A stretch of 64,000 bases of DNA. Source: a virus. Location: positions 36,705-100,704 of IMG/VR virus record IMGVR_UViG_3300025010_000005; one strand, 5' to 3'. The notes beneath the pieces were generated by a model. The model was not told the origin of the DNA and made no database searches. It saw only the letters and a program-made list of their open reading frames with translations. Shown here in pieces: positions 44,110-55,073 of the stretch; the first letter of the stretch is position 1; every line of letters starts with the position of its first letter. The position numbers and the translations under genes are program-made.

Positions 44110-44745
44110 CTAAATGATTTCGTCAACAACACCAAGTTTTAATGCTTCCTCTGCAAACATATACCAATCGGTTTTCCGTTCATTTACAATTTTGAGTTTG
44201 TCTGCATCAATGCTTGTAGATGAAAGAACCAAATCGTCTCCGATTTGTTGAAGTTGAGCCATATGCTCTACGTTCTCGATGATTTCGTTTAACTTACCCA
44301 TTGCTCCACCAGAGATTTGATGATACATTAATGTTGAATACTTCTGACAGAAACGTCTGTGTCCAGCACACAGAATCATAAATCCACATGACATTGCTTT
44401 TCCCAAAGCACAGGTGAAGATTGGAGTTGACGAAGATTGAATTGCCGAGATAATTGAGAAACATTCATAAACATTTCCGCCGAAAGTGTTGAGATAAAGA
44501 ACGATTGGATGTTCTTCTCGCTTATATCCAACCTTTTCCATCTCCGCGTCATCATCTTCCTGGTTGAATTTCTCGATTTGCATTACAACAGTTTCAATCA
44601 ACTTCTCGGTGATTTCCTCGTTAATTAAAATTTCTCTGTCTTTGAGCATTTCATCTTTAAGACTGCCACCCAAAAGTAAGAATGAATCCTCTGAACCTTT
44701 AATTTCCTTTGAGTCTTGTTTCTGCGATTTTGAAATATGTTTCAT
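44110..44745 (-). CDS. clpP: ClpP-like protease
   Basis: LNTFGGNV, AMSCG (Ser), MYHQ (His), DWY (Asp), AEEALKLGVVDEI. Confidence 0.92.
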   Translation of the reverse strand: MKHISKSQKQDSKEIKGSEDSFLLLGGSLKDEMLKDREILINEEITEKLIETVVMQIEKFNQEDDDAEMEKVGYKREEHPIVLYLNTFGGNVYECFSIISAIQSSSTPIFTCALGKAMSCGFMILCAGHRRFCQKYSTLMYHQISGGAMGKLNEIIENVEHMAQLQQIGDDLVLSSTSIDADKLKIVNERKTDWYMFAEEALKLGVVDEII

Positions 44746-45453
44746 CTAGTTCCATCCCCACATATTTTCTATTCTCTAGCTTCGCTGCTAAAGGAATACT
44801 GCCTGATCCTGCAAACGTGTCAAGTACAACATCTCCTTCATTACTATATGTTCTTACTAAATAGCGACAAAGCTCTAAAGTTTTTTGTGTCGGATGAAGT
44901 TTATTTTTTTCATCTAACCCATAACATAAAACATCTTTAGGGTAATTAGTAAACTCTTGTTTATATTCTTTTCCCCTCAAAATAGATTTATGTGGCATCA
45001 TTGATTCGCCACCAACCGTCATCGAGTTTTTACAAGTTCTATCAACTCGAATTAAACCTTGTGGATTATAAATAGATTGCGGCGTTCCAAAAACGCAAAT
45101 GTCCTCAACAAGTTTAAGAGGACGAAGTTTGGCGTTAAGGAATCCTGTAGGTCTATTTTTCATCCAAGTCCAACGGTACTTAAATTGTTTTATATTACTC
45201 AGAATAACTTTGCTTGTAAATGGTTCTCCGGCAAACATTAAAACAACACCATTTGGTTTAAGAATACGATTGTAATTTTCCCAAAGCAAATCTAAATCCA
45301 ATTCATATTCAAACTTACACTTTGTTGTGTTATAGGGTGCTTTTACGGAGGATCAGTTAAGATTAGGTCCACGGAATTGTCTTCCATTTGACTCATCATT
45401 TTAAAACAGTCCTCGTTGTAAATCTCATTGATCCTCAGTAAAACCACCCCCAT
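44699..45453 (-). CDS. beta-class N6-adenine/N4-cytosine DNA methyltransferase split at the DPPY motif (recoded gene or pseudogene)
   Basis: 5' frame ...NEIYNEDCFKMMSQMEDNSVDLILTDPP-stop (45453-45343); 3' frame YNTTKC...RILKPNG...HPTQK...DTFAGSGS from 45334; 11-nt gap. Confidence 0.85.
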
Positions 45454-45501
45454 TCGATTTTTTACACATATTGTTATCTCTGCTTTCTGTTTTAATTATT
45501 T

Positions 45502-45598
45502 AAAAAATGGTTTGTTCCTCGTCAGGAACCAGGCACGTCCAAAAAGCCTGCGCTTAACGTGGTGCGCCGGAGGGAATCTCACAGAGGCGTGTTAAGCA
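45502..45598. ncRNA. GC-rich three-hairpin element upstream of the methyltransferase
   Basis: GCTTAAC/GTTAAGC, CAGGC/GCCTG and GTTCCT/AGGAAC stems; U6 tract on minus strand. Confidence 0.5.
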
Positions 45599-45614
45599 AT
45601 TTAAAATATGTCAC

Positions 45615-45905
45615 TTAATATACAATTGTTTCTATTGTTGGTTTTCCAAATTTATATTTTCCGTTGATCCATTTGCCAAAAGTTATAGACTTTTGTTTTG
45701 TTGAAAGAGTTGTCTTGTTTAAATCAACTCCAAAATAATAAATTTTAAAAACACGACCAAGGCAACAAATTGAAAAATATAAACCAATTAATTTATGATT
45801 TAACTTATTTCTTATTAATGCAATATTGATTTCTGTTAACCAACAAAATTTTGCCAATTTATCACTATATATTCCGATTGTTAAATCATTTCTTTTATAT
45901 TTCAT
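45615..45905 (-). CDS. hypothetical protein
   Basis: AAGGAG SD; coupled to upstream stop. Confidence 0.65.
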   Translation of the reverse strand: MKYKRNDLTIGIYSDKLAKFCWLTEINIALIRNKLNHKLIGLYFSICCLGRVFKIYYFGVDLNKTTLSTKQKSITFGKWINGKYKFGKPTIETIVY

Positions 45906-47002
45906 TACAATAAATTCTCCTTAAACCATTCATATCGTTGCTTATTTACTTTATCCAAATCGTACCATTCAATTACTGTATCAAGTGATTTAGAACCAAG
46001 ATCATGTCTTAAGTTTTTATCTTGAATCAATGCTTCAATGTGTTTTTCCCAAATTTGACGTTTATTGTTTTTAACCAGAAGATTTGCTCCATCAGACATA
46101 TAGTTGAATCTTTCATACGGAGCGATCTTTGTCGAAACAGACGGTACACCCCAAATTCCAGCTTCAAGACATTTTAGTTCTGACTTTGATTCGTTGAAAG
46201 CAGAATTAACTACTGGCGTTAAGTTAATGTCGAACATACTTGGAATTTTGAAATGTTCTTCAAATTTAACGTGAGGAATATACATCTTCTGTGCTTCTGG
46301 AATATCAAATAAATCAAGAAATTCGGGGTTTGAACAAAGGGCGAAGATTGCATTAGGGTTGCGCTTAAACACGCCTTGTAGATTTTTGGCGATAGTCATA
46401 AGGCTACTATAATGTGTTGATGAACCAGTCCAACCAATAATAACTTTATCCTCTGGTAATTCATTTCGTCTTGAATCAACACCAATATATTTATTGATAT
46501 CAATTGCATTTGGAATAACTGTGATATTTGGATTGTGTTGTTTATACAATTCTTTTAATTCTGGAGTTGAACAGAAAATATGGTCACACATTTTTAAAGA
46601 CTTAATGAAGATGATTAATGCTTTTGATCCATTATGCCAAACTTTATGTGCTGGTGAAGTTGGATCAATATGAATGAGATCGTCGTCAATATCTTGATAA
46701 ATTTTCTTTCCTTGTTCTTTAAGAAACTTCATTACAGCAAGAATCTTTTCATCAGAGACTCGTTGAAAAACTATCGCATCATATTTCATTAAATCTTTTG
46801 CAAAATCTTGAATTGCAACACCAAACTCAATTTTATATTCACCAAACTCGATTTTAGTTCCATTTTTTAATTCATCATTGTAAAGATCAAACTCTATGTC
46901 ACCTTTTCCATTATAACGTTCCATGAGTCTTTTTACTGGTTGAATTATTCGATATTCTCCACAAGCGAACTTGTCCGCAGGAATATATAATACTTTTTTC
47001 AA
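45905..47002 (-). CDS. GT-B fold glycosyltransferase (GT4-like)
   Basis: YRI..P, DIDDD, STPEL, VIPNAID, IGWTGS..H, FNESKSELKCLEAG..GVP. Confidence 0.9.
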   Translation of the reverse strand: MKKVLYIPADKFACGEYRIIQPVKRLMERYNGKGDIEFDLYNDELKNGTKIEFGEYKIEFGVAIQDFAKDLMKYDAIVFQRVSDEKILAVMKFLKEQGKKIYQDIDDDLIHIDPTSPAHKVWHNGSKALIIFIKSLKMCDHIFCSTPELKELYKQHNPNITVIPNAIDINKYIGVDSRRNELPEDKVIIGWTGSSTHYSSLMTIAKNLQGVFKRNPNAIFALCSNPEFLDLFDIPEAQKMYIPHVKFEEHFKIPSMFDINLTPVVNSAFNESKSELKCLEAGIWGVPSVSTKIAPYERFNYMSDGANLLVKNNKRQIWEKHIEALIQDKNLRHDLGSKSLDTVIEWYDLDKVNKQRYEWFKENLL

Positions 47003-50033: not shown

Positions 50034-50543
50034 ATGTTTGATGCAAAGATAACAGTATTTAACAAGTATTTTCAAGCAGTAGGAATTGTTGGTGTGGAGA
50101 GAGCAATTACTTTGATTTATCTTGGAAAAGCAAATTCTATTAAGGATTCAGACAAAGTTATTCGTTCGGTCAGTATGGCAATTTCGATTCCCATTGCAAT
50201 TATGGTTCCAAACATGAAATACGTTAATCTTAAAACTCAACTTTGTACAAAAGAAGGCGTTAAAAAGAGAGATAATTTTACATGTTTGAATTGTGGTTGT
50301 AGAGACAAAAAGAAATTAACAATCGATCATTATATTCCTCAATCAAAGTTTGAACGTATTAAAAAAGATCAACATCTTGATTATGATATGTTTAGTTGGG
50401 AAAATCTTATTTGCCTCTGTCGCAAGTGTAATTCATCTAAAAGTAGTCATTCAGTTGAGGATTTAGGTTGGAATATCCCTAAACCCAAAACACCTCTGGT
50501 TAATCTTGATATTAATTGGACTGAAATTTATGGAGATGATTGA
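50034..50543 (+). CDS. HNH endonuclease (McrA-like)
   Basis: RDNFTCLNCG, TIDHYIP, WENLICLCRKCN. Confidence 0.9.
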   Translation: MFDAKITVFNKYFQAVGIVGVERAITLIYLGKANSIKDSDKVIRSVSMAISIPIAIMVPNMKYVNLKTQLCTKEGVKKRDNFTCLNCGCRDKKKLTIDHYIPQSKFERIKKDQHLDYDMFSWENLICLCRKCNSSKSSHSVEDLGWNIPKPKTPLVNLDINWTEIYGDD

Positions 50544-53171: not shown

Positions 53172-53789
53172 ATGAGAATGACAAAAAGCGAAGCTGGTAA
53201 ATTAGGACAACAAAAAAGTTTAGAAACTCATAAAAGAAAAAAAGAAGTTCGTATTCAAGAATATTTACAAAATCCAAATAAATGTACGTTTTGTGGAGAA
53301 AATTTAAAGTACGAAAAAAGAAAAAATAAATTTTGTTCTAGATCATGTCAGGCAAAATATTCAAACGCCAGAAGGTATAAATGTTTACAAAAACAAAACT
53401 GTATTTGTTGTGAAAAAACTTTATCAAGAAATAATGGAACTGGTTATTGCGTTGATTGTTTTGCAAAAACAAGGCGAAAACAAGTATCGGAAGATTGGTT
53501 GAATGGTACAAAAGAATATATTTCAGAGCAATTACCTAAATTTGTAAAAAGATTTATTGTTGAATATTATAAAAATACTTGTGGTAAATGTAATTTATCT
53601 ATTTGGAATAACAAACCAATACCTTTAGAAATAGATCACATTGATGGAAATCCATTGAATCATGATTTTAAAAATTTACGATTAATATGTCCTAATTGTC
53701 ATGCTCAAACCGACACATATAAAGCCAAAAATGCTGGAAACGGTAGGGCATATAGAAGAGAACGATATAAAGAAGGAAAAAGTTACTAA
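53172..53789 (+). CDS. zinc-finger HNH homing endonuclease
   Basis: CxxC, FCSRSC, LEIDHIDGN...NLRLICPNCHAQT; GAGG SD before ATG 53172. Confidence 0.92.
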   Translation: MRMTKSEAGKLGQQKSLETHKRKKEVRIQEYLQNPNKCTFCGENLKYEKRKNKFCSRSCQAKYSNARRYKCLQKQNCICCEKTLSRNNGTGYCVDCFAKTRRKQVSEDWLNGTKEYISEQLPKFVKRFIVEYYKNTCGKCNLSIWNNKPIPLEIDHIDGNPLNHDFKNLRLICPNCHAQTDTYKAKNAGNGRAYRRERYKEGKSY

Positions 53790-54685: not shown

Positions 54686-54759
54686 CTAGGCGTAACTCAG
54701 CTTGGTAGAGAGGTCGCTTTGGAAGCGATCAGTCGCACGTTCGAATCGTGCCGTCTAGA
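54686..54759 (+). tRNA. tRNA-Pro(UGG)
   Basis: GTCGC-TTTGGAA-GCGAT. Confidence 0.9.
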
Positions 54760-54765
54760 CTAAAT

Positions 54766-54994: not shown

Positions 54995-55068
54995 GCCGAT
55001 GTATCCGAATTGGCATAGGAGCCACTCTTAGAAAGTGGAATTTGGAGGTTCGACTCCTCTCATCGGCA
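54995..55068 (+). tRNA. tRNA-Leu(UAG), short variable loop
   Basis: CCACT-CTTAGAA-AGTGG. Confidence 0.88.
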
Positions 55069-55073
55069 CCTTT

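What the first reader, a model, noticed from the sequence alone, without database searches (positions are those of the whole stretch)
44699..45453. DNA methyltransferase split at its catalytic DPP|Y by an 11-nt stop-containing insert that pairs with the gene's own ribosome-binding site
Seen: the minus strand reads GAT CCT CCG [TAAAAGCACCC] TAT AAC. Removing 45345-45335 restores D-P-P-Y and an intact protein of about 245 aa with no other lesions (HPTQK and DTFAGSGS preserved). The downstream frame is closed by a TGA at 45355-45353, so any recoding must occur at the Asp-Pro-Pro codons. A simple -1 shift would give DPSVKAPY or DPPVKAPY and destroy the motif, whereas a hop from CCG (stop in the A site) to CCC rebuilds it exactly. 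The 5' region GGGTGGTTTTACTGAGGATCAATGAGATT (45449-45421) pairs with AATCTTAACTGATCCTCCGTAAAAGCACCC (45364-45335): 25 Watson-Crick pairs, 1 G-U, 3 mismatches, 1 bulge, ending exactly at the last base of the insert. The insert is therefore an anti-SD for the GGGGTG SD, and the likely start is a weak CTG inside the stem. Known: stop-hopping between matched codons occurs in T4 gene 60. Inference: a structure-controlled translational bypass (or micro-splicing) switch that throttles a methyltransferase; the phage tRNA-Pro(UGG) could serve both Pro codons. Alternative: an inactivating quasi-palindrome template-switch mutation.
Basis: partly seen in the sequence, partly recalled or inferred. Interest (0 to 1): 0.9.

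Follow-up and report, generated by a model that had tools for sequence, protein, structure and literature searches.

The report
Possible ribosome-hop gap in phage methylase
A groundwater phage's only DNA-methylase gene is cut inside its catalytic DPPY motif by 11 extra bases that start with a stop codon; dozens of related phage methylase genes have a similar break at the same motif under the same RNA helix, so ribosomes may hop over it, a very rare decoding trick, though this copy could also be dead.

Summary
On the minus strand the gene reads Asp-Pro-Pro (CCG at 45348-45346), then TAA, five more bases and CCC, then Tyr. Skipping 11 bases restores DPPY and an otherwise intact beta-class N6/N4 methyltransferase. 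Contigs from two samples carry the insert without variation. A 27-bp helix (z -6) pairs codons 2-11 with the take-off region and the whole insert.

This is not an isolated lesion. In IMG/VR, dozens of genes of this family carry short stop-containing gaps at the same motif. About 30 lie between P and Y, and some of those are Pro-stop-Pro. Others follow YG, and some of those change frame. All three stop codons occur. Most gaps sit beside one HNH endonuclease family. Their downstream frames are nearly always intact, and a covarying long-range helix starts 16 nt before the take-off codon, as here. Sixty-eight uninterrupted relatives lack such a helix.

Best reading (0.5): an orphan, longer variant of this gap class, decoded by a peptidyl-tRNA-Pro hop from CCG to CCC. 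Main rival (0.33): a dead gene, with the insert made by a template switch. No decoding data exist.

The anti-SD and CTG-start idea is not supported. This scan has reported the same class before on other DNA.

The parts
45346..45453 (-). Methyltransferase segment 1: ATG 45453 to the take-off Pro codon CCG (45348-45346), 36 codons ending ...VDLILTDPP
   Evidence: N-terminus matches family N-termini in tblastn (up to 67% over 27 aa)
45338..45345 (-). Proposed undecoded gap of 8 nt, starting with the stop TAA (45345-45343); together with the landing codon it forms the 11-nt insert 45345-45335
45335..45337 (-). Proposed landing codon CCC (Pro), directly 5' of the Tyr codon TAT 45334-45332
   Evidence: analogous Pro-stop-Pro-Tyr in L118, L166, L197
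44699..45334 (-). Methyltransferase segment 2: Tyr of DPPY to the stop TAA 44701-44699 (211 codons plus stop), no further lesion
   Evidence: PF01555, 90.8 bits, no stops inside
45421..45450 (-). 5' arm of the long-range helix (codons 2-11 of the gene)
45334..45364 (-). 3' arm of the helix: starts 16 nt 5' of the take-off codon, runs through take-off codon, stop and gap, and ends at the landing codon plus 1 nt
   Evidence: same 16-nt register as the class consensus
45615..45905 (-). 96-codon ORF of no known family directly upstream. Its last 21 residues resemble the stretch before the catalytic DH of the HNH endonucleases that sit upstream of gap-bearing methylase genes. Possible relic, weak evidence
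   Evidence: E 1e-4 pairwise; hhalign E 0.004; same site hit in about 18 loci, each weak; not significant in a genome-wide control; no relatives by phmmer
54686..54760 (+). Phage tRNA-Pro(UGG), the only Pro tRNA ARAGORN finds in the window; able in principle to pair with both CCG and CCC; anticodon loop has A at position 37

Best explanation
The locus is an orphan, longer variant of a recurrent class of short, stop-containing coding gaps at catalytic motif IV (DPPY) of phage beta-class N6/N4 DNA methyltransferase genes. In that class the gap usually travels with an HNH homing-endonuclease gene just upstream of the methylase gene. Inference, by analogy with T4 mobA and gene 60: the gap breaks the nuclease's target in the conserved DPPY-coding DNA, so the carrier is spared. 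The gene then stays useful only if ribosomes skip the gap. Proposed decoding here: with peptidyl-tRNA-Pro on CCG (45348-45346) and TAA in the A site, the tRNA unpairs, the mRNA slides 11 nt, and the tRNA re-pairs on CCC (45337-45335). Decoding resumes at TAT and gives ...ILTDPPYNTTK... and a full-length enzyme of about 247 aa. Ribosomes that do not hop terminate after 36 residues. The long-range helix is proposed to help. Its 3' arm begins 16 nt before the take-off codon, so it starts to re-form behind the ribosome just as the ribosome reaches the stop. Further zipping could draw the mRNA forward, and here the complementarity ends at the landing codon. Because the helix begins right after the SD-less ATG, it should also damp initiation, so output is probably low. 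Shown: the sequence, the helix, and the class with its conserved features. Inferred: the hop itself, its efficiency, the role of the helix, and descent from an HNH cassette.
For: 1) Same site and same layout elsewhere. Of 82 IMG/VR loci of this family, 5 have stop-containing micro-inserts at the motif and no lesion elsewhere. Motif searches and HNH-anchored loci add about 30 loci with a gap between P and Y and about 25 after YG. Pro-stop-Pro-Tyr occurs in L118/L119/L179/L191, L166/L173 and L197. 2) Stop-codon reassignment and readthrough cannot explain the class. TAA, TAG and TGA all occur, and gaps of 4, 5, 7 and 8 nt change frame (L125, L098, L100, L033). L033 has the same 11-nt step as the window. 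3) Downstream frames are kept: 31 of 31 that do not run off their contig are complete, and 19 of 21 further P|Y loci are intact. dN/dS downstream of the gap is 0.16-0.21 between L141 and L143-146, which share one gap. 4) The helix marks gap-bearing alleles. Fold z is -3.2 to -8.0 in 8 gap-bearing loci, with the window at -6.1. Of 30 HNH-linked gap loci, 22 have z below -4. The 68 uninterrupted loci have median +0.2 and minimum -3.2, and 3 uninterrupted HNH-linked loci have -0.6 to +1.2. 5) The helix covaries in 16 P|Y loci: 87% of cells paired against 34-55% when slid, 34 double-change cells, 0 of 500 shuffles as high. Its 3' arm starts 16 nt before the take-off codon, as in the window. 6) In the window the rest of the gene is intact and is the genome's only PF01555 gene. 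7) Gap and helix persist without an adjacent HNH gene in L084, L085 and L087, so an orphan state is not unusual. 8) Published work proposes that pairing of mRNA leaving the ribosome drives forward bypassing in T4 gene 60 (bioRxiv 10.1101/2024.12.09.627546). Stop-hops between matched codons are documented with synthetic constructs (PMC5009743).
Against: No decoding data exist for this locus or for any member of the class. The window's gap is unique: no other 11-nt P|Y gap was found, and it has no recognisable HNH neighbour. The nearest relative of the protein is only 52% identical, so selection on this copy cannot be measured. Take-off and landing codons are synonymous but not identical. The small local hairpin that covers take-off codon and stop in the P|Y class is absent here. 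The protein departs from 18 of 73 columns that are at least 90% conserved, against 7 or fewer in 31 homologues. Most changes are conservative, but HPTQKP becomes HPTQKT and GSGSTG becomes GSGSIP. This fits either an outlying lineage or relaxed constraint. The ATG has no SD although the phage uses them. Ten of 11 inserted bases being the complement of the other arm is what a template-switch mutation would leave. Because the cassette is mobile, intact downstream frames in the class may partly reflect recent invasions rather than selection. A later check of one earlier scan report put the hop reading at 28/100.
Confidence: 0.5

Rival explanations
1. Dead gene. A pre-existing imperfect inverted repeat in the 5' part of the gene provoked a replication template switch that copied about 11 nt from the other arm. 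Alternatively a decayed homing cassette left the insert behind. Ribosomes simply terminate at TAA and the phage lives without this methylase.
For: Ten of 11 inserted bases are the in-register complement of the 5' arm. A 15-bp core repeat remains when the insert is removed (dG -33.9, z -2.3). Template switching is known to build and extend hairpins (PMC8794818). There is no SD at the ATG. The protein has 18 of 73 departures at conserved columns. No HNH partner was found. All known copies are identical, so nothing shows selection. Two class members, L178 and L187, do carry further lesions.
Against: The break falls at the one junction (P|Y) where about 30 other phage genes carry stop-containing gaps, with a stop directly after Pro and a Pro codon directly before Tyr. 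The helix is in the same register as the class helix, and no uninterrupted relative has one as strong. The copy is not exact: one mismatch lies inside the insert and one at its 5' edge. No second lesion occurs in 247 codons.
Confidence: 0.33
2. A shift into the -1 frame at CCU CCG UAA (a shifty stop) gives a full-length protein with four extra residues, DPP-VKAP-Y or DPS-VKAP-Y.
For: The -1 frame is open from 45352 onward. A stop in the A site favours P-site slippage (PMC5009743).
Against: There is no slippery heptamer. Re-pairing of tRNA-Pro on UCC is poor. Four extra residues would split motif IV, and no family member in the alignment shows such an insertion. The class includes in-frame gaps that need no shift.
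Confidence: 0.06
3. The gap is removed or circumvented in another way: RNA-level excision, two polypeptides that assemble, or re-initiation after the stop.
For: Only that the long helix brings the gene's 5' end and the gap together.
Against: No known bacterial or phage activity excises 3-11 nt from mRNA. No start codon with an SD lies near the resume point; the first ATG, GTG or TTG is 11 codons downstream, at 45301. A split inside the catalytic loop is unlikely to work.
Confidence: 0.04
4. Assembly or sequencing artefact.
For: The genome is a metagenome assembly.
Against: The sequence is identical in contigs from two samples at 127x and 56x. The downstream ORF is identical on 8 contigs from three pipelines. 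An 11-nt structured insert is not a typical error.
Confidence: 0.02

Closest known systems
Phage T4 gene 60 translational bypass with the MobA HNH homing-endonuclease element (reviewed in PMC5009743, PMC7026636; homologues in bioRxiv 10.1101/2022.08.31.505936)
   Same: A stop follows the take-off codon directly, and the landing codon is for the same amino acid directly 5' of the resume codon. The gap interrupts a conserved part of an enzyme gene. In the related methylase loci an HNH gene lies just upstream, and the element supplies the gene's 5' part up to the gap, as MobA does. mRNA structure 5' of the gap is implicated.
   Different: The gap is 8 nt (an 11-nt step), not 50. Pro codons are used, not Gly GGA, and they are not identical. 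There is no compact take-off stem-loop and no GAG 6 nt before the landing site. The host gene is a methyltransferase, not a topoisomerase. This copy has no HNH neighbour. Nothing here has been tested at the bench.
HNH-linked stop-containing gaps at DPPY in phage methyltransferase genes, reported earlier by this scan on other DNA (e1-5374537, e1-5787852, e1-372592, e1-372232, e1-5652095, e1-5481964, e1-1935048, e1-5690572); I found no paper on them in the held library
   Same: Same enzyme family and same motif. The stop follows the take-off codon directly, a long-range helix is present, and the remainder of the gene is intact. I re-derived these features independently.
   Different: Most earlier reports concern Gly-stop-Gly gaps after DPPYG. 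Here the gap lies between P and Y. It is longer than the 6-nt P|Y gaps, changes frame, starts with TAA, and is itself part of the helix. It lacks the HNH gene.
Synthetic 'stop-hops' between matched codons in E. coli, and the proposed 10-nt bypasses in the Streptomyces phage Hau3 terminase gene (as reviewed in PMC5009743)
   Same: A short-distance hop of peptidyl-tRNA over a stop or slow codon to a matching codon.
   Different: The synthetic hops are inefficient and lack a dedicated structure. The Hau3 case uses UUA and is also untested. Neither involves a long-range helix.
Quasi-palindrome template-switch mutations (PMC8794818, PMC7202029)
   Same: The inserted bases extend an imperfect inverted repeat and are almost exactly templated by the other arm.
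   Different: That mechanism explains how the bases arose, not whether they are decoded. The copy is not exact (10 of 11), and the site coincides with a recurrent gap site.

Membership tests
Beta-class N6/N4 DNA methyltransferase (Pfam PF01555) | Significant match to the family profile | tested here: met
   1.2e-25, 91 bits against a cut-off of 26.7; 90.8 bits in the six-frame genome search; phrog_67 at 1.8e-48
Beta-class N6/N4 DNA methyltransferase (Pfam PF01555) | Contiguous motif IV (D/N/S)PP(Y/F) followed later by motif I FxGxG | tested here: not met
   Motif I DTFAGSGS is present, but motif IV is split DPP | 11 nt | Y in the DNA. It is contiguous only if 11 nt are skipped
T4 gene 60-type programmed translational bypass | Stop codon immediately 3' of the take-off codon | tested here: met
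   CCG then TAA
T4 gene 60-type programmed translational bypass | [quoted passage not shown] | tested here: inconclusive
   CCG and CCC are synonymous but not identical. A UGG-anticodon tRNA could pair with both at two of three positions or better. The phage encodes one
T4 gene 60-type programmed translational bypass | Compact take-off stem-loop with the take-off codon in its 5' side | tested here: not met
   The fold shows only the long-range helix. The P|Y class members do have a small hairpin over take-off codon and stop
T4 gene 60-type programmed translational bypass | SD-like GAG about 6 nt 5' of the landing codon | tested here: not met
   The gap holds no GAG or GGAG
T4 gene 60-type programmed translational bypass | Nascent-peptide signal and a demonstrated bypass product | not testable with these tools
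   Needs translation assays or mass spectrometry
HNH-linked motif-IV coding gaps of phage methyltransferases (this scan's class) | Short stop-containing insert at or next to DPPY in an otherwise intact PF01555 gene | tested here: met
   class examples
HNH-linked motif-IV coding gaps of phage methyltransferases (this scan's class) | Long-range helix pairing the 5' end of the ORF with the take-off region | tested here: met
   z -6.0 to -6.2. The 3' arm starts 16 nt before the take-off codon, as in the class consensus. The helix is absent from 68 uninterrupted loci
HNH-linked motif-IV coding gaps of phage methyltransferases (this scan's class) | HNH endonuclease gene of the A2 family directly upstream | tested here: inconclusive
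   There is no intact HNH gene. The upstream 96-aa ORF has a 21-residue likeness at the right place, but it scores 5 bits and ranks 11th in a genome-wide control. L084, L085 and L087 also lack the gene
HNH-linked motif-IV coding gaps of phage methyltransferases (this scan's class) | Gap form shared with other members (6 nt at P|Y; 3-9 nt after YG) | tested here: not met
   The 11-nt P|Y insert has no counterpart in IMG/VR with the prefixes searched. An 11-nt step exists only at the YG site (L033)
Quasi-palindrome template-switch mutation | New bases are the complement of the opposite arm, next to a pre-existing repeat | tested here: met
   10 of 11 bases in register. A 15-bp core remains without the insert
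Quasi-palindrome template-switch mutation | An ancestral or sister allele without the insert | tested here: inconclusive
   None was found in viral or metagenome contigs or among 5.8 billion proteins, but the phage has no close relatives on record

The most novel reading that the evidence does not exclude
The long-range helix acts as a measuring spring. As the ribosome stalls on Pro-stop, re-pairing of the emerging 3' arm with codons 2-11 pulls the mRNA forward until the complementarity runs out, 11 nt on, at the landing Pro codon. An RNA helix behind the ribosome would then set both the drive and the length of a natural ribosome hop. It would also throttle the phage's only DNA methylase by masking its start region. 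The phage's own tRNA-Pro(UGG) has A37 and so cannot carry the frame-keeping m1G37, and it may be the hopping tRNA.
Probability: 0.2. Interest if true: 0.9.

Novelty: new variant of a known kind. Interest (0 to 1): 0.72.

Why it matters
By the reviews read here, translational bypassing shown at the bench in bacteria and phages rests essentially on T4 gene 60; the mitochondrial and Streptomyces-phage cases were inferred or remain untested. A family of short natural stop-hops in phage methylase genes would give many compact test cases of under 150 nt. They vary naturally in gap length, frame, stop codon and landing codon, which suits tests of what makes a ribosome take off, slide and land. This locus adds the case in which the helix extends through the gap to the landing codon. 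That is the cleanest layout for testing the recent proposal that mRNA pairing behind the ribosome drives forward movement. It also bears on annotation. Such genes are called as fragments or pseudogenes: PHROGs holds fragment families phrog_12862 and phrog_18293. It bears as well on how homing endonucleases colonise conserved catalytic motifs without killing the gene. If this copy is simply dead, it is still a clear natural example of hairpin growth by template switching.

Tried and rejected
I could not fetch the six other contigs that carry the identical downstream ORF, nor the contigs of the 50-52% identical homologues.
- Megablast of the locus against GenBank phages found no match.
- An exact-pattern search for an uninterrupted or differently interrupted allele of this phage found nothing in IMG/VR or JGI metagenome contigs.
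- No RNA holder is listed among public runs. All four holders are Logan contigs from one study and may be the source data, so expression, RNA ends and rare variants could not be examined.
- Rfam found nothing in 44600-46000 at E up to 1. The GC-rich stretch 45502-45598 flagged by another note does not fold better than shuffles (z -1.5).
- phmmer of the 96-aa upstream ORF against 1.8 billion representatives found only itself and two low-complexity hits.
- The HNH-relic idea failed a genome-wide six-frame control (5 bits, rank 11), so I keep it only as a hint.
- TGA reassignment in the related phages is rejected, because all three stops and frame-changing gaps occur.
- dN/dS within the P|Y subgroup could not be done: no pair lies between 75% and 99.5% identity downstream of the gap.
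- Searches for another 11-nt P|Y gap gave only 6-nt gaps plus chance hits.
- I did not run structure prediction, fold search or complex prediction, because no question here turned on a fold.
Full report
**What is in the sequence**

The window is part of a 100,704-bp IMG/VR phage genome with direct terminal repeats. It comes from a groundwater metagenome, has 34% G+C and carries 25 tRNA genes.

On the minus strand an ORF starts at ATG 45453 and reads 36 codons, ending ...VDLILTDPP. The last Pro codon is CCG at 45348-45346 and is followed by TAA at 45345-45343. Eleven bases after that CCG, directly behind a CCC codon (45337-45335), a second frame reads YNTTKCKF... for 211 codons, down to the stop at 44701-44699.

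That second part matches Pfam N6_N4_Mtase at 1.2e-25. Homologues of 229-285 residues read ...DLILTDPPYGTT... without interruption.

The other frame available at the break is closed by TGA at 45355-45353. It would insert VKAP between PP and Y.

Logan contigs from two samples of one study carry the stretch unchanged at word depth 127x and 56x. The downstream ORF is identical on eight contigs from three sources. These may include the source data. They exclude a one-off assembly slip, but contigs hide rare variants.

**The helix**

RNAfold pairs 45450-45421 with 45364-45334. This gives 27 base pairs in four blocks at -46.1 kcal/mol and z -6.0, and no shuffle of 200 does as well.

The 5' arm is codons 2-11. 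The 3' arm runs from 16 nt before the take-off codon, through that codon, the stop and the gap, to the landing codon.

Ten of the 11 inserted bases are the in-register complement of the 5' arm. Without the insert a 15-bp core remains (-33.9 kcal/mol, z -2.3).

**The locus is not alone**

Notes from this scan report short stop-containing gaps next to DPPY in phage methylase genes on other DNA. I tested this independently.

- Of 82 IMG/VR loci of the same family, five have a stop-containing micro-insert at the motif and no lesion elsewhere.
- Two of the five (L018, L038) have it exactly between P and Y, as a stop plus a Leu codon.
- Three have it after YG. One of these (L033) has an 8-nt gap that changes frame with an 11-nt step, as in the window.
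- A motif search found five contigs with the P|Y form. Two further searches found 21 more P|Y loci and one more Pro-stop-Pro.

An HNH endonuclease ORF of about 188 aa lies directly upstream in L021 and L065, and in L086 and L088. This HNH family has 385 relatives. I used it to fetch 80 loci. Of those with a recognisable methylase N-terminus downstream, 35 carry a gap at the motif and four are uninterrupted (L127, L128, L133, L140).

The gaps use TAA, TAG and TGA. After YG the layout is Gly-stop-(0 or 1 codon)-Gly, or a frame-changing gap of 4, 5, 7 or 8 nt. Between P and Y it is a stop plus CTT, CTA, CTG, TTA, TCA or a Pro codon. L118/L119, L166 and L197 are Pro-stop-Pro-Tyr.

Reassigned stops and readthrough therefore cannot explain the class.

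**Signs that the class is maintained**

- Downstream frames are complete in all 31 HNH-anchored loci that do not run off the contig, and in 19 of 21 further P|Y loci.
- In the one lineage with suitable divergence (L141 against L143-146, same gap), dN/dS downstream of the gap is 0.16-0.21.
- Gap-bearing alleles fold unusually well over the 140 nt around the stop. Eight loci give z -3.2 to -8.0, with the window at -6.1.
- Of 30 HNH-linked gap loci, 22 have z below -4 and 27 below -2.8.
- The 68 uninterrupted family loci have a median of +0.2, a minimum of -3.2 and none below -4. Three uninterrupted HNH-linked loci give -0.6 to +1.2.
- In each gap-bearing locus the structure is a long-range helix between the first codons of the gene and the codons just before the gap.
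- In an alignment of 16 P|Y loci this helix covaries. Eighty-seven per cent of cells pair, against 34-55% with the partner slid. There are 34 double-change cells against 2-16, and no shuffle of 500 reaches the observed score.
- Its 3' arm starts 16 nt before the take-off codon, the same register as in the window.

**How the window differs from the class**

- Its P|Y gap is 11 nt, not 6, and so it changes frame.
- The helix continues through the gap instead of ending near the take-off codon.
- The small hairpin that covers take-off codon and stop in the P|Y class is missing.
- No HNH gene is present.

The upstream 96-aa ORF (45905-45615) ends with 21 residues that resemble the stretch just before the catalytic DH of the HNH family. 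The pairwise E-value is 1e-4 and hhalign gives 0.004. The same site is hit in about 18 loci, each weakly. In a six-frame control over the whole genome the match scores 5 bits and ranks 11th, and phmmer finds no relatives. I treat it as a hint of a decayed cassette, no more. Orphan gaps with a helix but without an HNH gene also occur in L084, L085 and L087.

**Mechanism proposed**

Peptidyl-tRNA-Pro on CCG faces TAA, unpairs, and re-pairs on CCC 11 nt downstream. Decoding resumes at TAT.

When the P site holds the take-off codon, only the first few bases of the 3' arm have left the ribosome. Further pairing with the free 5' arm needs the mRNA to move forward. This matches the proposal that pairing of exiting mRNA drives unidirectional bypassing in gene 60 (bioRxiv 10.1101/2024.12.09.627546). 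Here the complementarity ends at the landing codon.

All of this is inference. The same helix starts right after an ATG that lacks an SD, although 45 of 77 long ORFs in this phage have one against an 8% background. Initiation should therefore be weak.

The phage tRNA-Pro(UGG) has an ordinary 7-nt anticodon loop, but with A at position 37. It cannot carry m1G37, the modification that suppresses frameshift errors at proline codons (PMC8643618). The phage tRNA-Leu(UAG) also has A37, so this is not specific to Pro.

**The main rival**

A template switch on a pre-existing imperfect repeat would leave almost exactly these bases (PMC8794818), and the gene may simply be dead.

In favour of this reading:
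- There is no SD.
- There is no HNH gene.
- The protein departs from 18 of 73 highly conserved columns, against 7 or fewer in 31 homologues. The departures include HPTQKT for HPTQKP and GSGSIP for GSGSTG.
- Every copy on record is identical.

Against it:
- The site and the Pro-stop...Pro-Tyr layout coincide with those of the class.
- The helix register is shared with the class.
- There is no second lesion in 247 codons.
- The copy is inexact.

Origin by template switch and present-day decoding by hopping are compatible.

I put the hop at 0.5, a dead gene at 0.33, a -1 shift at 0.06, other routes at 0.04 and an artefact at 0.02.

**Comparison with what is known**

The nearest published system is T4 gene 60 with MobA (PMC5009743, PMC7026636, bioRxiv 10.1101/2022.08.31.505936). 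That system has a mobile HNH element that brings its own copy of the gene's 5' part, and a stop-initiated gap that ribosomes bypass.

The methylase gaps share that logic, but they are 3-11 nt long, sit in a different gene, and use Gly or Pro codons. I found no paper on them in the held library. This scan has reported the class before on other DNA, and a later check of one such report rated the hop reading at 28/100.

Noticed in passing
window 45615-45905 (-): A 96-aa ORF of no known family sits directly upstream of the methylase gene. Its C-terminal 21 residues resemble the segment before the DH catalytic motif of the HNH family found upstream of gap-bearing methylase genes. D and H are replaced and the ORF ends there. 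It may be a decayed homing endonuclease, but the match is not significant genome-wide.
   Followed up: partly
window 45502-45598 (-): A GC-rich stretch of about 100 nt in an AT-rich genome lies between the 96-aa ORF and the methylase gene. It ends in a hairpin followed by a U tract. Its fold is no better than shuffles (z -1.5) and Rfam has no match. It may simply be the terminator of the upstream unit.
   Followed up: partly
window 54686-54760 and 54995-55070 (+): The phage tRNA-Pro(UGG) and tRNA-Leu(UAG) both have A at position 37, where bacterial tRNAs that read CCN and CUN codons normally have G37 (methylated by TrmD). If so, these phage tRNAs would lack the frame-keeping m1G37.
   Followed up: partly
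window 44699-44745 (-): The ClpP-family prohead protease ORF, counted from its first ATG, overlaps the methylase 3' end by 47 nt. The true start is probably further downstream, after the methylase stop.
   Followed up: no
window about 50283-50447 (+) and 53580-53708 (+): There are two HNH-domain ORFs elsewhere in the window (170 and 231 codons open). Neither belongs to the methylase-linked HNH family. The second lies in the split tRNA-Thr region noted by another reader.
   Followed up: no
L134:2096-2125: In this HNH-linked methylase gene the stop follows the Tyr codon directly (TAT, then the 4 nt TAAC, then GGA). [quoted passage not shown] It is an odd member of the class.
   Followed up: no
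L178 and L187 (P|Y gap loci): In these two loci the frame downstream of the 6-nt gap is broken again, after 32 and 94 codons. Some gap-bearing genes are therefore decaying or carry a second gap.
   Followed up: no
L086 versus L088: These loci share nearly the same HNH gene, methylase N-terminus, gap and first 55 or so codons after it, and then have quite different target-recognition regions. This looks like one cassette recombined into two different recipient genes.
   Followed up: partly
L191, L179, L054: These contigs each carry three to five methylase N-termini of this family within a few kb, that is, tandem arrays of related methylase genes.
   Followed up: no
PHROGs phrog_12862 and phrog_18293: These two PHROG families correspond to the N-terminal and C-terminal halves of this methylase family. 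Fragmented calls of such genes are therefore common enough in phage annotation to have formed families of their own.
   Followed up: no
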